DNA of 64,000 nt from an uncultured Gemmatimonadales bacterium (GTDB lineage: Bacteria > Gemmatimonadota > Gemmatimonadetes > Gemmatimonadales > GWC2-71-9): NCBI GenBank assembly GCA_963730185.1, contig CAVSQW010000006.1, positions 224,001 through 288,000 of the forward strand. The letters run 5' to 3'. The notes under the pieces are model-generated. The model was not told where the DNA came from. It did no database searches and saw only the letters and a list, made by a program, of their open reading frames with translations. The translations under genes were made by a program, and so were the position numbers. Shown here piece by piece: positions 8,595 through 18,652 of this stretch (the first letter of the stretch is position 1; the number at the start of each line of letters is the position of its first letter).

Positions 8595-9047
8595 CTAGCC
8601 TTCCACCAGCCGGGCCAGCTCCGCGAGCACCCGCTTCTGTCCCTTGGGATCGCGGGTCGCGATGAAGATCGTATCGTCGCCGGAGATGTTGCCGAGGATG
8701 TCGGGCCAGGCCAAGCGGTCGAGCGCCACGCCCACTCGGTTGGCTTCACCCGGGGGTGTGTGCACCACGATCAGCACCTCGCCGGCCGGTGAGTAGGCCA
8801 GCACGCCCTCGACGATCCGCTGCTCGTCCAGGTCCGTCCGGGGCGGCCGGGTCAGGGCGGACCGCTTGTAGGCCCTCTCCACCTTGACCAGCCCCAGGCT
8901 CGCGATGTCACGGCTGACCGAAGGCTGAGTGACCTCCCACCCCTCGCGGGCCAGCGCGTCCGCCAGCTCCTCTTGGGTGTGGATCGCGTGCGTCTCGATC
9001 AGCTCGAGGATCTTGAGCTGCCGCTGACGGCGATCCTTCCTGATCAT
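8595..9047 (-). CDS. argR: Arginine repressor
   Basis: RQLKILELI..TQEELADAL..VTQPSVSRDI..LVK and GNISGDDTIFI motifs. Confidence 0.95.
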   Translation of the reverse strand: MIRKDRRQRQLKILELIETHAIHTQEELADALAREGWEVTQPSVSRDIASLGLVKVERAYKRSALTRPPRTDLDEQRIVEGVLAYSPAGEVLIVVHTPPGEANRVGVALDRLAWPDILGNISGDDTIFIATRDPKGQKRVLAELARLVEG

Positions 9048-10409
9048 CTGCGTCCCCCGAGCAGCCGTCGGATCGCCCGATCGAAGCGCGCCCGCCGCTC
9101 GCGATTCACGCGGCGCTGACCCGCCAACCGGGTCCGCGGGGCCGCCAGGTCCAGGTTGCCGACGCCGCCCAGCGACCGCCGCCGGGCCAGGACCTCGCCG
9201 GCCGGCACGGGCGGCATGGGCCGGCCGGCCTTGAGGGCCGCCGCCACCTCGCGATAGGCGGTTCGGAACGGCTCGCCGGCTTCCACCCGGCGCATCACCT
9301 GGTCGGTGGAGAGCACCCCGGCATCCAGCGCCCGGCGCCCCCGCTCCCGGTCCACGCCCAGCACCGGCACCACCCGCGCCATCATGGTCAGCATTTCGCC
9401 GGTTCGCGACAGGCCGCGGAGCAGCGGCTCCTTGAGCAGCTGGAAGTCGCGATGATAGCCGCTGGTGAGCTTGCCCCGGATCGCCAGCAGGGCCGCGAGG
9501 TCGCCTTCGAGCGCCGCGACCCGCGCCCGGGTGAGCTCGAAGACGTCGGGGTTCCGCTTCTGGGGCATGATGCTCGAACCCGTGGCGTACTCCGTCGGGA
9601 GCTCCAGGAGCCCGAACTCCGGTCCCGAGAGCAGGATCACGTCGCTGGCGAACCGGGAGAGGTCGTGCCCGAGCTGGACGCACCAGAAGAGGACACCCGC
9701 CTCGAGCTTGCCCCGGCCCAGCTGCACGGTGGCCACGTTGTGCTCCACCGCGGCGAATCCGAGCGCCCGGGCCGCCACCTCGCGCTCGAGGGGTAGCGGC
9801 ACTCCGTAGCCGGCGGCGCTTCCCAGCGGGGAGCGGTCCACCAGCTCCCAGACCGTCCCCACCGAGCCGGCCGTGTCGAGCAGCGCCTCGGCGTAGGCGG
9901 CGGCCCAGAGCCCCGCGCTCGACGGCATCGCGGGCCGGAGGTGGGTGTACCCCGGCCAGAGCGCGGTCCGATGTTTCGTCGCGAACGCCAGGAACGCGGC
10001 TGCCAGATCGCAGGCGCCGGCCTGGAGGAGCGAGCAGCCGGTCCTTGAGCAGGAGCCGGAGATCGCACGCGACCTGATCGTTCCGCGAGCGGCCGGTGTG
10101 GACCCGCTCGCCGGCGGTGCCCACCCGGTCGGTGAGCCAGGTCTCCACCGCCGAGTGGGCGTCCTCGTGCTGGGCACGGATCCGGAGGGTACCCGCCTCC
10201 ACCGCCCGGAGCGCGGCCCGCAGTCCCGCCCGGAGCTTCCGGTAGTCGGCGGTGGTAAGGAGCTTCGAGGCGCGGAGCCCTTCGATGTGCCCCAGGCTCC
10301 CGAGCACGTCCCAGCCCAGCAGCTCGGCGTCGACCTCGCGGTCGCTCCCGACGGTGTAGTCGAGCATGGCCCGGTCGGCCCGATCGCCTTTGGCCCAGAG
10401 GGTTCTCAT
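9044..10409 (-). CDS. argH: Argininosuccinate lyase (one apparent frameshift near 10030)
   Basis: HTGRSRNDQV in one frame; GYTHLRPAMP and TGSSIMPQKRNPD in the next frame. Confidence 0.9.
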
Positions 10410-11489
10410 CTGGAGGTACTCCTCCGCGAGCGCCCGGTAGAAGCTCCGGGCGGCCGTGACTTCGGGAAGGTCCACCGATTCGTCGGGCGTGTGCGACCGG
10501 CGGCTGGTACCGGGCCCGCACTTGATCGCGTCGGTCTGCCGCACGAAGACCCAGTCGGAGCAGGTCGGGCTCCCGAAGGTCCGGGCCCCCGGCCGGACCC
10601 GGAGCGCGGCCGCGAGGAGCCGGGAGTCGGCCGGGGTCTCGCAGGGAACCAGCCGCTCCGAGGTGACCACCACGTCCGACGTCAGCTGCCGCCGGAGCTC
10701 CTCCGCGATCTCGGGGTGCTCCCAGTCCGGCGTGCTCCGGATGTCGAGCACCGCCCGGGCCACGGGCGGGGTGACGTTCCGGCTCACCCCCGCGTCCAGC
10801 ATCGTGGCGGTCACGGTGGCCCGGCCCAACACGCCATGGGCCCGTTGGCTCAGCAGCTCGGGCAGCTTCACCAGGTCGCCGGCCAGCCGGGTGATTGAGT
10901 TCTCGAAGGCGCCGTCGGCCGCGTAACCCGCGTGTCGTTGATCGCCGTGGGCGACCAGATCCACCATCATCAACCCCCGCTGCGCCACCGCGACGTCGAG
11001 ATTGGTCGGCTCGCCCACCACCGCCGCCGAGATCGGCGGGAGCGAGGCCACCGCCCGGCCCATGGTGGTGTGCCGGGTCTCTTCGCCCAGCCCGAGGATC
11101 ACGAAGAGCTGGCCCCGGAGCCCCGAGGTGCCGACCCCCTGGGCCAGGTCGATGGCCGCGGTGATCATCGCCGCCACGGCGGCCTTGGCGTCGCCGGAGC
11201 CCCGGCCGTAGAGGAGATCGCCTTCGATCGTCGGGACGAAGGGATCGCGGGTCCAGCCGTTACCCGGCGGCACCACGTCGAGGTGCGAGATCAGCGCCAG
11301 ACTCCGGCCCGGCCGCCCGCTGTCGACCACGATCTTGACGCCGGTGTCGTCCCGGATCACGTCGAGCCCGGCCCGCCGGGCCAGGGCCTCGACGAACCGC
11401 GCGATCGGCTCCTCATCGCCGCTGATCGACGGGATCGCGACCAGGTCGCGGAGCAGCTCGATCTCAGTCGACGAGCTCGACCCCGACAT
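10406..11489 (-). CDS. argE: M20 deacylase, ArgE-like (acetyl- or succinyl-citrulline/ornithine deacylase)
   Basis: SHLDVVP, GRGSGDAK, GEPT, GSPTCSD and KCGPGTSRRSHTPDE motifs. As given it reads in frame into argH, so the 3' end is uncertain. Confidence 0.85.
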
Positions 11490-12408
11490 AGCTCGCTTTC
11501 TCCTTCTTCCCGACGATCATGGTGCCGGTCCCGGCCCCGGTGAACACTTCCACGAGGATGGAGTCGGGGAGCCGGCCGTCGATGATGTGGGTCCGCTCCA
11601 CCCCGCTGGTGGCCGCCCGGATGCAGGCGTCGACCTTGGGGCGCATCCCGCCGGCCAGCGAGCCGTTGGCAATCAGCTGGGCCAGATCGTCGGGGTCGGC
11701 GAACGTCACCAGCGACGACGGATCGTTCCGGTCCCGGAGCACGCCCGGGACACTGGTGAGGAAGATCAGCTTGTGCGCTTTGAGTCCGATCGCGAGCTGC
11801 TCGGCCACCGTGTCGGCGTTGACATTGTAGACGTTGCCGTCGCGATCGCCGGCCAGCGACGCCACCACCGGCACGAACCGCTGGTCGAGCAGGGTCGTGA
11901 GCACCCGGACGTCGACCCCGGTCACGTCGCCCACGTGGCCGAAGTCCACCAGCCGGCTGGTGCCGTCGTCGTCCGTGACCTCGACCGGCGGCCGTTTGGC
12001 GGCGGTGAGCAGATCAGCATCGACCCCGCTCAGTCCCACCGCCTGCACGCCGTGGTGCCGGAGAGCCGAGAGCACCTCGAGGTTCACGGTCCCGGAAAAC
12101 ACCATCTTGGCGACCTCCAGGGCCCCGTCGTCGGTGACCCGGCGGCCCGCCACGATCACGGGCTCCTGCCCCAGCCGGCGGCTCAGCGCCGTGGCCTGGG
12201 CCCCGCCGCCGTGGACCACCACGATCCGGATGCCGAGCGAGTGAAGCAGGCCCAGCTGGGCCGCCACCTGCTCGAGCACGTGCGCGTCGGAGACGACGTC
12301 GCCACCGATCTTCACGACGAAGGCATGGTCGCGATAGGCCCGCACGTATCGGAGCGCGCCCTTGAGTCCGGTCAGCGGCCGAGCCGCGTCGAGAGGAGCC
12401 GTCATCAT
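11464..12408 (-). CDS. argB: Acyl(acetyl)glutamate kinase
   Basis: VVKIGG, VVHGGG, GRRVTD, YNVNADT and GGMRPKV motifs. Confidence 0.95.
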   Translation of the reverse strand: MMTAPLDAARPLTGLKGALRYVRAYRDHAFVVKIGGDVVSDAHVLEQVAAQLGLLHSLGIRIVVVHGGGAQATALSRRLGQEPVIVAGRRVTDDGALEVAKMVFSGTVNLEVLSALRHHGVQAVGLSGVDADLLTAAKRPPVEVTDDDGTSRLVDFGHVGDVTGVDVRVLTTLLDQRFVPVVASLAGDRDGNVYNVNADTVAEQLAIGLKAHKLIFLTSVPGVLRDRNDPSSLVTFADPDDLAQLIANGSLAGGMRPKVDACIRAATSGVERTHIIDGRLPDSILVEVFTGAGTGTMIVGKKEKASYVGVELVD

Positions 12409-13433
12409 CCCCCGCTTCCTTCCCTGTTGCCGATCAGATCCAGCAGGAGGGCCCGCTGCGCGTGGAGGCGGTTCTCCGCCTGGTCCACCACCACGGAGCA
12501 AGGGCCGTCCAGTACCGCGTCCTCGATTTCGACGTTCCGGCGGACCGGGAGGCAGTGCATCACGATGCCCTTCCCGCCCCGGGTGGCCTTGAGGGAATCC
12601 ACGTTCATGATCCAGGGACGGAGATCCTTCCGGAGCGCCTTCTCTTCCTCGGGCTTCCCGTACAGCTGGAGGGAGCCCCAGGACTTCACGTAGACCGCGT
12701 CGGCGCCCACCATCGCGTCGGTCATCGAGCCCGCGAGCGTGACCCGGCCACCGTTCGCGGTGGCCGTCTTGTAGATCGTGGCCATGTCGTCCGGGTCGAG
12801 GTCGTAGCCCTGGGGCCGGGCGATCACCACCTCCATGCCCAGTTGCGCCGCGGCGATCGCCGCGCTGGCCGGGACCGCGGTCGGGAGCGCCTTGGGGTGC
12901 CAGGCCCACGAGAGCACGAACTTCTTTCCCTTGGGATCGCCGAGCTTCTCCTTGAGGGTCAGGGCGTCGGCCAGTCCCTGACACGGGTGGCGCCGAGCCG
13001 ACTCCAGATTGATCACCGGCTTGTCGCTGTACGCGGCGAAGTCCTTGATCACCCGGTCCTGGCGTTCCTTCTGCCAGTCGGTGCCCCGGGGGAAGACCCG
13101 GACCCCGATCGCGTCGGCATACCGGGCCAGGACCCGCGAGGTCTCGATCAGGTGCTCCACCGCCGCGCCCTCCATCACCACGCCGGGCTCGGTCTCCCAG
13201 GTCCAGCTGCCCCGCCCCGGCTCGAGCACGATCATGTGGCCGCCGTGGAGGAACATCGCGGCCTCGAGGCTGGCCCGGGTCCGGAGGCTCGGGTCCATGA
13301 AGGCGGCCGCCAGGATCTTCTTCTCCAGGCCGCCCGGGACCTCGTTCCGCTTGGCCCGCGCGGCCAGGTCGAGGAGGCCCTGGAAGGCCTCCGGGGTCAA
13401 GTCCTCGGTCGCGAGGAAATCACGCTTTCTCAT
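12405..13433 (-). CDS. argF: N-acyl-ornithine carbamoyltransferase (ArgF' family, AOTCase/SOTCase)
   Basis: SLRT, HPCQ, WAWHPKALP, KSWG, HCLPVRRN and AENRLH are characteristic of the acyl-ornithine transcarbamylases rather than canonical OTC. Confidence 0.9.
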   Translation of the reverse strand: MRKRDFLATEDLTPEAFQGLLDLAARAKRNEVPGGLEKKILAAAFMDPSLRTRASLEAAMFLHGGHMIVLEPGRGSWTWETEPGVVMEGAAVEHLIETSRVLARYADAIGVRVFPRGTDWQKERQDRVIKDFAAYSDKPVINLESARRHPCQGLADALTLKEKLGDPKGKKFVLSWAWHPKALPTAVPASAAIAAAQLGMEVVIARPQGYDLDPDDMATIYKTATANGGRVTLAGSMTDAMVGADAVYVKSWGSLQLYGKPEEEKALRKDLRPWIMNVDSLKATRGGKGIVMHCLPVRRNVEIEDAVLDGPCSVVVDQAENRLHAQRALLLDLIGNREGSGG

Positions 13434-14585
13434 GTCAGCACCCGACGCAACGCGTCGACCAGCAGGGTGGCTTCGGCTCGGGAGAACGAGAGCGGCGGCA
13501 TCAGCCGGAGCACCGCCGGGTCGCTCGAGGTCCCGGTGAGGATGCGCGACTCGAAGAGCGCGCGCTGAACGTCCGGCGGCCTTCCGGTCGAGCCGGAGGC
13601 CGAGGAGCAGGCCGCGGCCTTGGACGTCGGAGACGGCGGGGATCCGCTGCACCGCCCGGCGGATCTGGTCGCCGACCATCACGGCGTTCTCGATCAGCCG
13701 CTCGCGCTGGAGCACGGTCAGGTTGGCGAGGCCGGCCGCGGCGGCCACCGGGCCGCCGCCGAAGGTGCTGCCCAGGTCGCCCACCTTGAGCCCCGAGGTG
13801 ATCGCCGGGGTCGCGACCATGGCGCCGATCGGGATCCCGGCCGCGAGCCCCTTGGCCAGGGTCAATACGTCGGGCACCACCTCGAACGCCTCCGCCGCCG
13901 TGAAGGCGCCGCAGCGGCCCACCCCGCACTGGATCTCGTCGAAGATCAACACCGCGCCTTCGCGGTCGCAGGCCAGCCGGGCGGCCCGGAGAAAGTCGGG
14001 CGAGCAGTCCCGCGCGCCGGCCATCCCCTGGACCGGCTCGACGATCACCGCGGCGACGGTGTCGTCCACGGCGGCACCGATGGCGGTGACGTCGTTGAAC
14101 GGCACCTTGGTCGAGAGCGGGATCCCGGCGCGGCGAGCGCCGTCTTCGTACTTGGCCCCGTCGGTCACGGCCAGCGTGGCCACGGTGCGCCCGTGCCACC
14201 CGCCGGCCACCGAGACGATCTTCTGGCGGCCGGTGACCTTGCGCGCCAGACCGAGGGCGTTCTCGTTGGCCTCCGCGCCGCTGTTGCAGAAGAACACCTT
14301 GCCCAACGGGTCGGGGCAGAGCGAGGCGATGACCTCGGCCAGCTCCTCCCGGCCCGCGTGGGGGATCGCGGTCGAGTAAAAGATCAGCTTCGCGGCCTGG
14401 TCGGCGATCGCCTTGACCACCTCGGGATGCGAGTGGCCGGTCGAGGCGACCGCGTGGCCGCCGTAGGCGTCGAGCCACCGCTCGCCCTTCTCGTCCGTGA
14501 TCCAGGAGCCCTTGCCCGACACCACTCGCAAAGGGAACTGGGCGTACACCGGCAACCAGGCGCCGGAGGTCTGGGATGCGGTCAT
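13430..14585 (-). CDS. argD: Acyl-ornithine aminotransferase (frameshift near 13574)
   Basis: CNSGAEANE, HGRT, EPVQG, DEIQCG and STFGG motifs. The C-terminus DVQRALFESRIL...LRLMPPL continues in a shifted frame to a TGA overlapping the argF ATG. Confidence 0.9.
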
Positions 14586-14594
14586 GCCGCTCCT

Positions 14595-15623
14595 CTAAAT
14601 GGGAAAGGGAGACGCGGCGCCGAGCCCGGCGCGCTCGTCGACGCCCAGGGCCAGGTTCATCGCCTGAATGCCCTGCCCGCCGGCGCCTTTGACCAGGTTG
14701 TCGATCGCCACGGTGATGATGACCTCGTCGCCCTTGGTGGTCGGGGCGACGTGGAGCAAGACGTCGTTGGAGCCCACCGCGTGGGTCAGCTCCGGAGGCG
14801 CGTCAAGGACCCGGACGAAGGGGCGCCCCGCGAAGGCGGCCTTCGTGGCCGCCGGCAGCTCGCCGCCCACCGGCTCGGCAAGCCGGGCGTGCACGGTGGC
14901 GTAAATGCCCCGCACGAACGGCCCCGAGTGCGTCAGCAGGCGGGGGCCCGCCTCGGCCCGGCCGGTCCAGGCCCGCCACTGCTCCTGGAGCTCGGCCTCG
15001 TGCCGGTGCCCCTGGACCGAGTAGGCGAACACGTTGTTGGCCCGGAACGGGTGATGGGTCGTCGGCTTGGGACTGACCCCCGCTCCGCTCGAGCCGGTGA
15101 TCCCCCAGACCGCGGGCTCCACCGCGAGCGAGGCCTGTCGAAGCGGGTAGAGCGCCAGCTGGGCGGCCGTCGCAAAGCAGCCCGGCGCGGCGATCGCCTT
15201 GGCGCCTTTCAGCTCGGCGCCCCGGACGTCGGCCAGGCCGTACTCGAACCGATGCACCAGCTCGGGCGCGGGATGCCGGCCGTAGTAGCGCTCGTGGAGC
15301 CGCCCGTCGTGCACCCGGAAATCGGCGGCCAGGTCGACCACCAGGCCCGGACCGGCGTCGAGAATCTCGCCCATGATCTTGGACGACTCGCCGTGCTCCA
15401 GCGACAGGAAGACCACGTCGGCGTCGCGGGCGGCCTCGGCGGGCGAGAGCCCGGCAAACCGAACCTCGGTTCGCCCGGCGAGCGAGGGATGCACCTCGCC
15501 CAGGGGCTTCCCGGCTTGGCTCCGGCTGGTCGCCACCAGCTCGGTGACCTCCGGGTGCTGGAGCAGGAGCCGAAGCAACTCCCCGCCGACGAAGCCGGCG
15601 GACCCGATCGCGGCCACCCGCAT
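14595..15623 (-). CDS. argC: N-acyl-gamma-glutamyl-phosphate reductase
   Basis: GSAGFVGGELLRLL, DLAADFR, APGCFATA, GSSGAG and DNLVKGAGGQ motifs. Confidence 0.95.
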   Translation of the reverse strand: MRVAAIGSAGFVGGELLRLLLQHPEVTELVATSRSQAGKPLGEVHPSLAGRTEVRFAGLSPAEAARDADVVFLSLEHGESSKIMGEILDAGPGLVVDLAADFRVHDGRLHERYYGRHPAPELVHRFEYGLADVRGAELKGAKAIAAPGCFATAAQLALYPLRQASLAVEPAVWGITGSSGAGVSPKPTTHHPFRANNVFAYSVQGHRHEAELQEQWRAWTGRAEAGPRLLTHSGPFVRGIYATVHARLAEPVGGELPAATKAAFAGRPFVRVLDAPPELTHAVGSNDVLLHVAPTTKGDEVIITVAIDNLVKGAGGQGIQAMNLALGVDERAGLGAASPFPI

Positions 15624-16708
15624 CAGGCGGCTCCCTGCCGGGCTCGCCAGTCGGCGATGGCCGGCTCCACCACGTCGAGCAGGCCGGCGGCGTCGCGGCG
15701 GGCGTTGTGGGCCGGGAAGCCCAGCGTGCCGGTGATGAAGTCGCGACCGACCTGGTTGTCGGTGGCGGGTCCGGTAAAGAGCGTGAGCGGGAGATGGAAC
15801 CGGTCGCGATAGAGCTCCAGCGCTCCCCAACAGGCCACCGGATCGGGCGCGGCCATCACGTGCGCGGCGCCCAGACCCATCAGGCCCCGGTTCTCGAGAA
15901 TGTCCTGCACCCCGTACTCACCCAGAATCCCGTCACCCAGCTCGGCCACGATCACGTCGGGGGCGCCCGACGAGCGGCTGGCCAGCCGGTTGAAGAGCCC
16001 GCGGGCCACCCCCACGGTCAGACCCGGGTGGGTGCTGGCGATGCCGGCATCGTTGAAGGTCAGCGCCGCGATCGCGCCGGCATCGAGCATGGCCAGCGTG
16101 TCCCGCATCAGCGACACGCCGGTCAGCTTGGCGGCGCCGACCCGATAGCCGCGCCGAGCCAGACCCCGCACCAGCTCGGTGGCCGCGACCGTCTTTCCAG
16201 CGTTCATGCAAGTCCCGGCCACGTACACGACCGGGGTCTCGGCCGTGAGCTCGTCGGCCACCGGCACCGCGCCGTCGTGGATGGTGGCCGGCGTCCCGAC
16301 CCGGTCGCCCAGATCGGGAAAGGCCAGCACGGCACCCAGGACCTCCGCCTGGAACGGCGGCCCGATGTCGGGATTCTCGGAGATGCACCGGCCCACGATC
16401 CCGCCCAGGTTGAGCACGGCGATCGTGTCGCCGACCACGATAGTGTCGGGCACCTCGCCGGCGTAGCCCCGGAGTGCCCGGCGGGAGCCGAGCACCCCGG
16501 CCAGGACGTCGCCGGAGCGGAGCGAGACCATCCGGCCGCTCACGTCCTCGACGGTGTTGTAGCTCGACTTGTCGGTCAGGATCCGGACCGCGAGGATCCG
16601 CCCCTCCTCGGCCAGGATCTCGTTGCCCACGATCACGTCGGGCGCGAGCCGGGCGTTCCGGGTGGCCGACGAGATCCGGTCGAGGTGGACCCGGGTGGTA
16701 CGCACCAT
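15623..16708 (-). CDS. DUF1611/DgcN-like P-loop protein embedded in the arg operon
   Basis: Walker-A-like GTCMNAGKT, AKLTG and VIVAELGDG. Tightly packed between argG and argC. Confidence 0.7.
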   Translation of the reverse strand: MVRTTRVHLDRISSATRNARLAPDVIVGNEILAEEGRILAVRILTDKSSYNTVEDVSGRMVSLRSGDVLAGVLGSRRALRGYAGEVPDTIVVGDTIAVLNLGGIVGRCISENPDIGPPFQAEVLGAVLAFPDLGDRVGTPATIHDGAVPVADELTAETPVVYVAGTCMNAGKTVAATELVRGLARRGYRVGAAKLTGVSLMRDTLAMLDAGAIAALTFNDAGIASTHPGLTVGVARGLFNRLASRSSGAPDVIVAELGDGILGEYGVQDILENRGLMGLGAAHVMAAPDPVACWGALELYRDRFHLPLTLFTGPATDNQVGRDFITGTLGFPAHNARRDAAGLLDVVEPAIADWRARQGAA

Positions 16709-16709
16709 C

Positions 16710-17906
16710 TCAGCCACCACTTCGCTCGCCCACCCGGGCCGCCAGGAGCGACGGGATCGCGCCGATCCGGGCGAAGGCCCGGGCCTCGTCGCCGGTCCAG
16801 AGCCGGTTCTCCTCGCCGTAGGTGGCGACGCTCTTGTCCATCAGCGAGAAGGGGCTCCGGGTCCCGGTCACCATGAACCGGCCCGGCGCCAGATGAATTC
16901 GGGTCTCGCCCGTGACCCGCCGCTGCGAGCTGGTAATCAGCGCCTCGACGTCGCGGAGCGCGGGGTCGAAGTACTGGCCCTCGTGGAGCCGGTCGCCGTA
17001 GAAGCGGGCGAGCTGGTCCTTCCAGAAGGTCTGCCACTTGGTGAGGACCAGCTTTTCCAGCTCGCGATGAGCCGCGATCAGCACCAGCGCGGCGCCGGCC
17101 TCGAACCCGATCCGGCCCTTGATGCCGAGCGCGGTCTCGCCCACGTGGATGTTCCGGCCCAACCCGTAGGCGTCGCTCAGGTCGTTGAGACGACCCACCA
17201 AGGCGGCGCCATCCAGCGGCGTCCCGTCGAGGGCGCGGGGCACGCCCCGCTCCCAGGCAACGATCACGTCGGCCGGGCCGGGCGCGTCGGCCGGCGGGTC
17301 GACCAAGTCGGGTGGCGGCCCGGCCCAGGTATCGTGGGTCCAGCCACCACCCCAGGTGGTGCCCCAGAGCCCCTTGTTGATGCTGTAAGCGCCCGACTTG
17401 GGCGGCACCGGAAGGCCGCGTGACTCCAAGTAGGCGATGGCCTGGTCGCGGGAGAGCGACTCGTCCCGGATCGGGGTCACGATGCTCAGGTCGCCGGCCA
17501 GCACCCGGATGGCGATGTCGAAGCGGACCTGGTCGTTCCCGGCGCCGGTCGAGCCGTGGGCCACGGCCTTGGCGCCGATCCGCCGGGCCACCTCCACCAC
17601 CGAGATGGCCTGCTGGGTCCGCTCCGCCGACACGCTCAGCGGGTAGACCTCGCCCCGGAGCACGTTGCCCTGGATCAGGTAGCGGACGAAGCGGTCGAAG
17701 ACGGCGGTCCGGGCGTCGACCTCATGGTGCTCGACGGCGCCGACGGCCAGGGCCTGCTTCCGGATGGCGGCGAGCTCTTCCGAGGTGGCGCCGCCGGTGT
17801 CGACGTAGACGGTATGGACGGCGTAGCCCTGCTCGGCGAGCCGGGGGACGCAGTAGGAGGTGTCGAGCCCGCCGGAGAAGGCGAGCGCAATGGCTGGTTT
17901 CTGCAT
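16710..17906 (-). CDS. argG: Argininosuccinate synthase
   Basis: LAFSGGLDTS, HGSTGAGNDQVRF and GIKGRIGFEA motifs. Confidence 0.96.
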   Translation of the reverse strand: MQKPAIALAFSGGLDTSYCVPRLAEQGYAVHTVYVDTGGATSEELAAIRKQALAVGAVEHHEVDARTAVFDRFVRYLIQGNVLRGEVYPLSVSAERTQQAISVVEVARRIGAKAVAHGSTGAGNDQVRFDIAIRVLAGDLSIVTPIRDESLSRDQAIAYLESRGLPVPPKSGAYSINKGLWGTTWGGGWTHDTWAGPPPDLVDPPADAPGPADVIVAWERGVPRALDGTPLDGAALVGRLNDLSDAYGLGRNIHVGETALGIKGRIGFEAGAALVLIAAHRELEKLVLTKWQTFWKDQLARFYGDRLHEGQYFDPALRDVEALITSSQRRVTGETRIHLAPGRFMVTGTRSPFSLMDKSVATYGEENRLWTGDEARAFARIGAIPSLLAARVGERSGG

Positions 17907-17924
17907 ATTGCATAATAATGCAAT
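17907..17924. promoter_or_regulatory. ARG box (ArgR operator) overlapping the -10 element
   Basis: Perfect arms ATTGCAT-AATA-ATGCAAT (18 bp, AT-rich island) abutting the argG ATG. The minus strand carries TTGCGC-N17-CATTAT. Confidence 0.8.
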
Positions 17925-17961
17925 TGAGCTGCCGTCCGCGCAAGCGGGCGGGGCGGGATCG

Positions 17962-18384
17962 TTACCGGCGGGCCTTGCGGGTGGGTCGGTGGGAGACGAC
18001 CCGGAGCCCGGGCACGCGGGTGAATTCCCGCTCGTTGGCCGTGACCAGGGCCTTGCCGTAAGTGATGGCGGTGGCGGCGATCCAGAGATCGTTCGCCCCG
18101 ATCAGGAGCCCGTTGGCTTGGAGGTAGCGAAAGGTCTGACCGTAGGTCCAGGCCACCGCGTCCGAGCATTCGAGGACGTGGAACGGGGCGACCAAGCGTT
18201 CCCACTTGTGCCGGTCGGTGGGCGCGGCTCCGGCCGCCACCTCTCCACACACGGTGAAGGTGAGGAAGAGTGGCATCTCGGAATGCTGCTCGAGAAAGGC
18301 CTGCGCCGGCCCCGGGGTGCCCCGTCCCAGCTCGCGCTCCAAGTCAATCAGGAACGTGGTCTCGAGGATCAGTCCCTGGCCCAT
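17962..18384 (-). CDS. vapC: PIN-domain VapC toxin
   Basis: LILETTFLID...IGANDLWIAATA...LVTANEREFTRVPGL. Confidence 0.9.
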   Translation of the reverse strand: MGQGLILETTFLIDLERELGRGTPGPAQAFLEQHSEMPLFLTFTVCGEVAAGAAPTDRHKWERLVAPFHVLECSDAVAWTYGQTFRYLQANGLLIGANDLWIAATAITYGKALVTANEREFTRVPGLRVVSHRPTRKARR

Positions 18385-18617
18385 TTGTCGCGCGGCGGGC
18401 GGTCGGCCTTCTTGAGCTCGGTTACGGCATCGAGTTCGGCGTCGGCGTAGATCGGCCCCCGCTCACGCACCAGGGCGAGCAGCGCGCCCGCCGTCACCGG
18501 CTCGGACTCCCAGCGGGCTCGCATGATGACCTCGCTGAAGGACTCATGCGGCGTTCGGCGGGCGGCCACCAGGCGACGGTAGGCCTCGTCGCGGACTGAG
18601 ATCGTCTTGGTACTCAT
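18369..18617 (-). CDS. vapB: VapB-type antitoxin (DUF217-like)
   Basis: MSTKTISVRDEAYRRL..R..ESFSEVI. Overlaps the vapC start. Confidence 0.85.
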   Translation of the reverse strand: MSTKTISVRDEAYRRLVAARRTPHESFSEVIMRARWESEPVTAGALLALVRERGPIYADAELDAVTELKKADRPPRDKWARD

Positions 18618-18652
18618 ACACAGAGAGTACACAGACAATGCATATCCGTCAA
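18617..18652 (-). promoter_or_regulatory. vapBC promoter with direct-repeat operator
   Basis: TTGACG-N17-TACTCT-N6-ATG. TACACAGA occurs twice (18617 and 18628). Confidence 0.7.

What the first reader, a model, noticed from the sequence alone, without database searches (positions are those of the whole stretch)
15623..16708. DUF1611-like P-loop protein fills the missing ArgA/ArgJ slot of an otherwise complete arg operon: candidate new glutamate N-acylating enzyme
Seen: the operon argG-X-argC-argD-argF'-argB-argE-argH-argR covers every step from N-acyl-glutamate to arginine, but has no argA, argJ, GNAT, lysW or lysX gene. X starts 1 nt after the argG stop, its stop overlaps the argC start, it lies under the ARG box, and it carries a Walker-A-like GTCMNAGKT. 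Established (recalled): a DUF1611-family protein, DgcN, acts as a D-glutamate N-acetyltransferase. Inference: X performs step 1, making N-acetyl- or N-succinyl-L-glutamate from acyl-CoA or by ATP-dependent ligation. I cannot check whether this has already been reported.
Basis: partly seen in the sequence, partly recalled or inferred. Interest (0 to 1): 0.85.

Follow-up and report, generated by a model that had tools for sequence, protein, structure and literature searches.

The report
Predicted alternative arginine first-step enzyme
An unnamed nucleotide-binding protein inside this bacterium's arginine operon most likely makes N-succinyl-glutamate, the pathway's missing first product; a recent paper already predicts that role for the same family without a test, and the open question is whether it uses ATP and free succinate instead of a CoA donor.

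Summary
Observation confirmed. X (15623-16708, minus strand, 361 aa) sits in argG-X-argC-argD-argF'-argB-argE-argH-argR under a conserved ARG box. No argA, argJ or lysX was found in the 82%-complete genome. The idea is already in print: GapMind 2026 (PMC13759103) predicts, untested, that Steroidobacter ACG33_RS14135 is an alternative N-succinyl-glutamate synthase. X is its full-length homologue (about 45% identical, read by eye from the paper's plasmid file). This scan found look-alikes in 17 other genomes.

Corrections: X is not a DUF1611/DgcN member, and the genome has a separate DUF1611 gene. The acyl group is probably succinyl (ArgF' V92/P185/E302).

Added here: 0 of 77 genomes with a close X carry argJ (29 expected); 157 of 160 homologue loci have arg neighbours; one X-ArgB fusion exists. 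X keeps four dethiobiotin-synthetase active-site residues (K172, K194, D203, E256); the second lysine is absent from 29 of 29 DUF1611 proteins. Its all-beta N-domain has no clear PDB match.

Best reading: step-1 N-succinylglutamate synthase (about 0.85), more likely an ATP-dependent ligase (about 0.5) than a CoA transferase (about 0.27). Nothing is shown biochemically.

The parts
15623..16708 (-). X: 361-aa two-domain protein, candidate N-succinyl-L-glutamate synthase
   Evidence: intact and 79% identical over its full length to the L002 copy
16259..16708 (-). X N-terminal, almost all-beta domain (aa 1-150) with conserved S14, E54, R76; no clear solved-structure match; not the Rossmann-like DUF1611_N domain
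   Evidence: models; best VIA Z 4.3, none at Z>=5; no Foldseek match at E<=0.001; no PF17396 hit; conservation
15635..16255 (-). X C-terminal SIMIBI-class P-loop domain (aa 152-358)
   Evidence: VIA Z 14.7-16.9 to DUF1611 proteins, dethiobiotin synthetases and DgcN
16190..16216 (-). BioD-type Walker A GTCMNAGKT (aa 165-173); G171 and K172 invariant in 87 of 87
16127..16129 (-). K194, invariant second lysine, aligned to the K37-type lysine of dethiobiotin synthetase
15941..15943 (-). E256 of ELGDG, invariant, aligned to the Glu of BioD EGAGG
17909..17922 (.). ARG box directly before the argG start; overlaps a -10-like CATTAT (17915-17920) placed 17 nt after a -35-like TTGCGC (17938-17943), which suggests a leaderless mRNA (read by eye, inferred)
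16710..17906 (-). argG, argininosuccinate synthase
   Evidence: TIGR00032 above cut-off
14595..15623 (-). argC, N-acyl-glutamyl-phosphate reductase
   Evidence: TIGR01850 above cut-off
13430..14585 (-). argD, aminotransferase; frame change between 13573 and 13620
12405..13433 (-). argF' with the succinyl-type residues V92, P185, E302 (X. campestris numbering)
   Evidence: NF003384 above cut-off; PDB alignment; residue rule in PMC4581275
11464..12408 (-). argB, N-acylglutamate kinase, no GNAT domain attached
   Evidence: TIGR00761 above cut-off; Pfam shows AA_kinase only
10410..11441 (-). argE-like M20 deacylase; reads in frame into argH in this assembly
9044..10409 (-). argH, argininosuccinate lyase; frame change between 9976 and 10065
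8595..9044 (-). argR, arginine repressor
   Evidence: PF01316 and PF02863

Best explanation
X is the first enzyme of a succinyl-type arginine pathway. It makes N-succinyl-L-glutamate, which ArgB, ArgC, ArgD, the succinyl-type ArgF', ArgE, ArgG and ArgH take on to arginine under ArgR control. The role (about 0.85) is inferred from genomic context. The most likely chemistry is a CoA-independent, ATP/Mg-dependent ligation as in dethiobiotin synthetase: the P-loop domain transfers the gamma-phosphate of ATP to a succinate carboxylate, the alpha-amine of glutamate attacks the acyl-phosphate, and ADP and phosphate leave. The all-beta N-domain probably binds a carboxylate substrate through conserved R76. 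Shown here: operon, box, distribution, fold, conserved residues, ArgF' specificity residues. Inferred: activity, substrates, ATP use and the role of the N-domain. The confidence given is for role plus ATP-ligase chemistry.
For: Role. 80 of 80 close loci (72-83% identical) lie in the same arg gene order as far as the contig reaches. 77 of 80 distant metagenome loci (37-47%) have arg neighbours; the other 3 are contigs under 1.5 kb. Among 251 genomes of the phylum, 77 have a close X, all 77 have argC and none has argJ, against 29 expected among the 198 argC-positive genomes; counting 4 divergent homologues too, 2 of 81 overlap. One 626-aa protein fuses X to ArgB (P0233), like bifunctional NAGS-kinases (recalled). 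GapMind reports no co-occurrence with Pseudomonas-type ArgA.
Succinyl. ArgF' has V92/P185/E302, the SOTCase pattern of PMC4581275. V92 in 66 of 66, P185 in 65 of 66, E302 in 61 of 66 close loci, the rest not covered. No Glu92 in 39 of 39 distant loci with argF' (30 Thr, 6 Ala, 3 Val).
ATP chemistry. G171, K172, K194 and E256 are invariant in 87 of 87 homologues and D203 is Asp in 85. hhalign pairs them with the BioD Walker-A Lys, KP Lys, Asp and EGAGG Glu (probability 94.8%, E 4.9e-8). The DUF1611 profile scores 59.8% and has V, A or C at the K194 site in 29 of 29. M. tuberculosis DTBS has K15, K37, D49 and E108 in its active site (PMC9932657, passages), and BioD works through a phosphoric anhydride (PMC11089781, passage). 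X lacks the Rossmann-like N-domain of DUF1611/DgcN.
Against: No biochemical or genetic test exists; GapMind lists evidence 'no'. By structure the C-domain is tied between DUF1611 proteins (2G0T Z 16.9, rmsd 2.9, 179 aligned; 2OBN 15.8), DTBS (15.4, 15.2) and DgcN 7XRJ (14.7, rmsd 3.2, 183 aligned). DgcN also has the Walker-A Lys and the EGQG Glu, yet is described as an acetyltransferase (acetyl-CoA use recalled; paper not held), so a P-loop alone does not prove ATP use. Read by eye, DgcN 7XRJ has Arg at the K194 site, a conservative change. The genome is only 82% complete, and the Bacteroides-type GNAT ArgA had no dedicated model in my searches. Genomes are kin, so the exclusion rests on few independent events. 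4 of 5 X genomes tested by handle (G123, G039, G137, G057, picked as divergent) have only an ordinary OTCase, so succinyl is not established family-wide. The fusion is a single cluster with one member, and none was seen in 80 further loci.
Confidence: 0.5

Rival explanations
1. Same role, DgcN-like chemistry: X transfers succinyl from succinyl-CoA to L-glutamate, and the P-loop binds the phosphates of CoA or a regulatory nucleotide. This is the reading implied by GapMind.
For: All context evidence above. The top two VIA rows are DUF1611 proteins and DgcN scores Z 14.7. GapMind found Foldseek similarity to 7XRJ. Characterised ArgA enzymes use acyl-CoA (recalled); the Bacteroides one, BT3761, is a GNAT.
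Against: The profile match is stronger to BioD (94.8%) than to DUF1611 (59.8%), and K194 and D203 are kept with BioD but not with DUF1611. DgcN's Rossmann-like N-domain is replaced by an unrelated beta domain.
Confidence: 0.27
2. X is an ArgJ-like recycler that moves the succinyl group from N-succinyl-ornithine or N-succinyl-citrulline back to glutamate, possibly through an acyl-phosphate, and so also does part of ArgE's job.
For: Strict exclusion with argJ. GapMind notes that S. denitrificans lacks the expected ArgE. Loci L131 and L132 have X with argC, argD and argB but no argE or argF' match nearby.
Against: argE is in this operon and in 54 of 80 close loci, all those that reach far enough. 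A recycler cannot start the cycle, and no other acylating enzyme was found. The fold is unlike ArgJ.
Confidence: 0.08
3. X is an accessory SIMIBI NTPase, such as a metal chaperone for ArgE or a regulator, and step 1 is done by an unrecognised GNAT elsewhere.
For: HypB, UreG, MeaB and ApbC appear among the structural neighbours. The genome is incomplete, and GNATs diverge fast.
Against: Exclusion with argJ and with ArgA is not expected of a chaperone. X occurs without a neighbouring argE and fused to ArgB. No NKxD-type guanine motif is visible in X (by eye). A strict genome scan found 3 ARG-box-like sites, and only this one precedes an ORF that passed my length and codon filter.
Confidence: 0.08

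Closest known systems
[quoted passage not shown]
   Same: Full-length collinear homologue: about 45% identity by my hand translation and hand alignment of the 357-codon pALF12 insert, with the GTCMxAGKT, TGVSLxRD, ELGDG and TGPATDN motifs shared. By BLAST X is 47% identical over 352 aa to a Steroidobacteraceae protein, P0338. Same operon, same ArgF' argument, same remote DgcN similarity.
   Different: Different phylum: 'Gemmat' occurs in neither the main text nor the six supplementary files (Figure S2 not visible). The passages read do not test argJ, mention the ArgB fusion or the P-loop ('p-loop' 0 hits in the main text), or propose ATP-dependent chemistry.
DgcN D-glutamate N-acetyltransferase / DUF1611 family (PF07755 + PF17396, NF041892; PDB 7XRJ, 2OBN, 2G0T)
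   Same: C-terminal P-loop fold (Z 14.7-16.9), Walker-A Lys and the Glu of the EGxG motif; N-acylation of glutamate as the proposed reaction.
   Different: Below cut-off for PF07755, no PF17396 or NF041892 hit. Different N-domain; 14-17% identity; no invariant second Lys in DUF1611. A true DUF1611 gene lies elsewhere in this genome (G000:C15:134563-135576) and matches X only over 33 residues.
Dethiobiotin synthetase BioD (TIGR00347), SIMIBI-class ATP-dependent C-N ligase
   Same: Same core fold (Z 15.2-15.4; top Foldseek row) and four aligned active-site residues.
   Different: X has an extra 150-aa beta domain and scores 16.8 bits against a cut-off of 83.3. The genome has its own bioD on C7. 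Substrates differ.
BT3761 GNAT N-succinylglutamate synthase of Bacteroides thetaiotaomicron (PMC8121099, passages)
   Same: Same proposed product and the same place in a succinyl-type arginine pathway; supported there by fitness data.
   Different: GNAT fold, unrelated to X.

Membership tests
GapMind predicted alternative ArgA (ACG33_RS14135 family) | Full-length sequence homology to ACG33_RS14135 | tested here: met
   About 45% identity by hand from the pALF12 insert, not computed by a tool; 47% by BLAST to Steroidobacteraceae P0338
GapMind predicted alternative ArgA (ACG33_RS14135 family) | Located in an arginine operon | tested here: met
   80 of 80 and 77 of 80 homologue loci
GapMind predicted alternative ArgA (ACG33_RS14135 family) | No canonical ArgA in the same genome | tested here: met
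   genome 81.8% complete; the PF04768 search had no positive control
GapMind predicted alternative ArgA (ACG33_RS14135 family) | Neighbouring ArgF' with A/P/S/V at position 92 | tested here: met
   Val92
GapMind predicted alternative ArgA (ACG33_RS14135 family) | N-succinyl-glutamate synthase activity | not testable with these tools
   Also untested in print
DUF1611 / DgcN | PF07755 above gathering score | tested here: not met
   19.3 bits against 25, residues 155-201 only
DUF1611 / DgcN | Rossmann-like N-terminal domain PF17396 | tested here: not met
   No hit at E<=0.1; the N-domain model is almost all beta; the genome's true DUF1611 protein does hit it
DUF1611 / DgcN | NF041892 (DgcN) match | tested here: not met
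   Not among X's hits at E<=0.1; 0 of 87 family members at E<=0.001; the genome search finds only the C15 gene
DUF1611 / DgcN | C-terminal P-loop fold | tested here: met
   Z 14.7-16.9, rmsd 2.9-3.2, about 180 aligned, tied with DTBS
Dethiobiotin synthetase (BioD) | TIGR00347 above cut-off | tested here: not met
   16.8 bits against 83.3
Dethiobiotin synthetase (BioD) | Walker-A Lys, second Lys, Asp and EGxGG Glu of the active site | tested here: met
   K172, K194, D203, E256 aligned by hhalign to 24 BioD sequences; K194 also by HMMER to 3FGN
Dethiobiotin synthetase (BioD) | ATP-dependent acyl- or carbamyl-phosphate chemistry | not testable with these tools
   Needs an enzyme assay
GNAT ArgA, ArgJ or LysX | Sequence or fold match to GNAT, ArgJ or ATP-grasp models | tested here: not met
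   No such family among X's Pfam or NCBIfam hits; the modelled C-domain is a P-loop fold

The most novel reading that the evidence does not exclude
X founds a class of CoA-independent, ATP-dependent succinate:L-glutamate ligases. It would join a BioD-type SIMIBI catalytic domain to a beta domain with no solved relative, and give a further entry into arginine biosynthesis beside GNAT ArgA, ArgJ and LysX/ArgX. A sister subfamily beside capsule-synthesis (PGA_cap) and racemase genes would use the same chemistry on other substrates.
Probability: 0.45. Interest if true: 0.75.

Novelty: new member of a known kind. Interest (0 to 1): 0.4.

Why it matters
The family fills the first-step gap of arginine synthesis in 77 of 251 sampled genomes of this phylum and, per GapMind, in 109 genera. 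That much is already predicted in print. If the chemistry is ATP plus free succinate, it would be a new reaction for a SIMIBI ligase and a CoA-free way to N-acylate glutamate. It would also explain why an assay with acyl-CoA alone, or a plain E. coli argA complementation, might fail. The residue list (K172, K194, D203, E256, R76) makes this directly testable.

Tried and rejected
Single-sequence search of solved structures: nothing significant. Direct retrieval of the S. denitrificans protein from the protein collection: not among the best 120 of 7507 hits to P0126, so its identity to X rests on a hand reading of the supplement. Search for fused forms of 696-2000 aa: none among 8000 candidates, weak evidence, and 633-695 aa was covered by neither search from X. 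Loci of the fusion P0233 in metagenome contigs: none. P0228 (687 aa, X plus ArgC pieces) rejected as a multiply frameshifted gene call. N-domain fold search: best Z 4.3 (LexA C-domain), no Foldseek hit; this does not show that the fold is new. 7XRJ was not among the Foldseek rows shown but appeared in VIA. PF04768 search uninformative, as no control rang. ESM Atlas gave only unnamed or weakly DUF1611/MobB/CbiA-labelled clusters. Sequencing runs: no RNA holder listed, no reads laid. No dimer or ATP complex model was obtained, so oligomeric state and nucleotide pose are open. The DgcN paper (Yu 2023) is not held. The 46 genomes with an argC-like hit but neither close X nor argJ were sampled only in part (8 loci among the 20 fetched): L120 is a LysW-type lysine cluster by family scan and L121 looks the same, and the step-1 enzyme of the others was not identified. 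Searches for experimental follow-up found only the GapMind prediction; most subscription journals are not in the library, and GapMind's figures and figshare tables could not be seen.

Full report
1. Observation. The window holds a minus-strand arginine operon, argG (16710-17906), X (15623-16708), argC, argD, argF', argB, argE, argH, argR, identified with Pfam and NCBIfam. X is 361 aa, starts 1 nt after the argG stop and shares one base with the argC start. A perfect ARG box lies at 17909-17922. A box with at most one mismatch precedes argG in 66 of 69 relatives that had enough upstream DNA, against 0 of 69 control stretches. The nearest homologues are Gemmatimonadales. Against the 79%-identical locus L002, argD and argH change frame in this assembly and argE has no stop before argH. 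These are probably assembly errors (inference); X is intact.

2. Is step 1 missing? In the window's genome (5.27 Mb, 81.8% complete) ArgJ was not found while 10 of 14 controls rang. The long ArgA model hit only argB, two short GNAT-ArgA models found nothing, and LysX hits were far below cut-off. The PF04768 search had no positive control, and the Bacteroides-type GNAT had no model of its own. A strict scan found 3 ARG-box-like sites in the genome, and only this one precedes an ORF passing my filter. Absence is likely but not proven.

3. Context across relatives. All 80 loci kept from 477 confirmed GTDB matches (72-83% identical) show the same gene order as far as their contigs reach. Of 80 loci kept from 540 metagenome matches (37-47% identical to X), 77 have arg neighbours and 3 are contigs under 1.5 kb. 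In 251 genomes of the phylum, 81 match the X profile: 77 at E<=1e-88 and 4 at 1e-64 to 1e-73, a split made on the score gap. 198 have an argC-like gene (some are LysY) and 77 have argJ. All 77 close-X genomes have argC and none has argJ, against 29 expected; with the 4 divergent copies, 2 of 81 overlap. Kin are not independent, so I give no p-value weight, but the pattern alternates between genera inside one family. Three genomes in these counts (G053, G178, G153) are marked unpublished. The 4 divergent copies (31-34%) are not near arg genes. One 626-aa metagenomic protein joins X to an ArgB domain (P0233). It is a single-member cluster seen on 4 contigs, and no fusion was seen in the 80 metagenome loci.

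4. Which acyl group? ArgF' passes the AOTCase model, but its best PDB match carries Val at position 92 (3L06), as it does. The review PMC4581275 (passages) names E92, N185 and K302 as acetyl-type, and A/S/P/V/Q, P and V/I/E as succinyl-type. This ArgF' has V, P, E; so do 66, 65 and 61 of the 66 close loci with argF', the rest not covered by the alignment. None of 39 distant ArgF' has Glu92 (30 have Thr, which is not in the review's list). Succinyl is therefore likely here. Of 5 X genomes checked by handle, the 4 picked as divergent have only an ordinary OTCase, so the acyl group is open for them.

5. What X is. The AlphaFold model is confident (pLDDT 96.7, 87 sequences): an almost all-beta N-domain (1-150) and a P-loop C-domain. 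The C-domain is tied between DUF1611 proteins (Z 16.9, 15.8), dethiobiotin synthetases (15.4, 15.2) and DgcN (14.7); Foldseek ranks a DTBS first and a DUF1611 protein ninth. The N-domain alone gave no match at Z>=5 among 48,161 chains. X is not a DUF1611/DgcN member: it is below the PF07755 cut-off, lacks PF17396 and NF041892, and a true DUF1611 gene sits on another contig. Only G171, K172, K194 and E256 are invariant in 87 homologues. A profile comparison aligns K172, K194, D203 and E256 with the Walker-A Lys, second Lys, Asp and EGAGG Glu of 24 BioD proteins (94.8%). 29 DUF1611 proteins of the phylum score 59.8% and have V, A or C at the second-Lys site. These residue types line the DTBS active site (PMC9932657, passages), and DTBS works through a phosphoric anhydride (PMC11089781, passage). 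Against this, DgcN keeps the Walker-A Lys and the Glu and, by eye, has Arg at the K194 site, yet is described as an acetyltransferase; its acetyl-CoA use is recalled, since the paper is not held.

6. Mechanism. Most likely X makes N-succinyl-L-glutamate (role about 0.85). I put ATP-dependent ligation of succinate through succinyl-phosphate at about 0.5, succinyl-CoA transfer at 0.27, ArgJ-like recycling at 0.08 and an accessory NTPase role at 0.08. Operon, distribution, fold and residues are shown; activity, substrates and nucleotide use are inferred.

7. Prior art. GapMind 2026 (PMC13759103: abstract, passages, part 1 of section 5, sections 26 and 27, part 1 of supplement 1, parts 2-3 of supplement 4, term searches of all six supplements; bioRxiv version, passages) predicts that Steroidobacter ACG33_RS14135 is an alternative N-succinyl-glutamate synthase. 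Its grounds are operon position, exclusion with Pseudomonas ArgA (109 against 970 genera), remote similarity to DgcN 7XRJ and ArgF' position 92. Table 1 lists no experimental evidence. A plasmid with the gene (pALF12) is in the supplement, but the strain table has no argA background; the parts I read give no result for it. Translated and aligned by hand, that insert is collinear with X at about 45% identity; by BLAST X is 47% identical to a Steroidobacteraceae protein. Four library searches found no experimental follow-up; subscription journals, figures and figshare tables were not visible. This scan has look-alike stretches in 17 other genomes, and the 8 notes shown reached the same reading. 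I had reached it before that look-up, and they are not independent support.

8. Verdict. Real, conserved and probably correctly interpreted, but a new member of a family whose role is already predicted in print. What this work adds is the argJ exclusion, the ArgB fusion, the three-residue succinyl signature, the rejection of DUF1611 membership and a residue-level case for ATP-dependent ligase chemistry. Interest 0.4; 0.75 if the ligase reading (about 0.45) holds.

Noticed in passing
window 13573-13620, 9976-10065 and about 10410: argD and argH change frame, and argE runs without a stop into argH, whereas the relative L002 has intact separate genes; probably assembly indels.
   Followed up: partly
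window 17962-18638 (minus strand): A VapB-like antitoxin (PF02697) and PIN-domain toxin (PF01850) pair lies directly upstream of the arg promoter.
   Followed up: no
window 17906-17943: A -35/-10-like pair (TTGCGC, 17 nt, CATTAT) ends 8 nt before the argG ATG, with the ARG box over the -10; the same layout is visible in many relatives, suggesting a leaderless operon mRNA.
   Followed up: partly
L127:7874-8944, L128:3899-5041, L130:2123-3268: A divergent X-like subfamily (32-34% identical) away from arg genes. In L127 and L128 it follows an unassigned 400-460 aa gene and precedes a PGA_cap (CapA-like) gene, in L127 also an ABC transporter. G206 and G222 carry it together with argJ. Possibly amide ligases for a capsule-like polymer.
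   Followed up: partly
L129:4964-10528: Another divergent X homologue lies between an M20 hydrolase, a GNAT, an FAD oxidoreductase and a MenC-type racemase, resembling N-succinyl-amino-acid racemisation clusters (recalled).
   Followed up: partly
L120:7389-8057, L121:9286-9933, L126:9154-9798: An unassigned 215-223 aa EgtC/class II glutamine-amidotransferase-like gene sits between the argC-like and argB-like genes; in L120 the cluster is LysW-type (lysX and LysW-aminoadipate kinase above cut-off). Its role is unexplained.
   Followed up: no
L131 (G137), L132 (G123); also G039, G057: L131 and L132 have argR-X-argC-argD-argB without argF' or argE nearby; all four genomes have only an ordinary OTCase. 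The acyl group and the deacylase there are open.
   Followed up: partly
G000:C15:134563-135576 (L082:1087-2166): A true two-domain DUF1611/DgcN-like gene next to pspA, with no racemase among the two neighbours scanned; such genes occur in 42 of 61 sampled genomes, in both X and argJ carriers.
   Followed up: partly
protein P0233 (626 aa, JGI): Natural X-ArgB fusion, annotated only as acetylglutamate kinase; its DNA was not found.
   Followed up: partly
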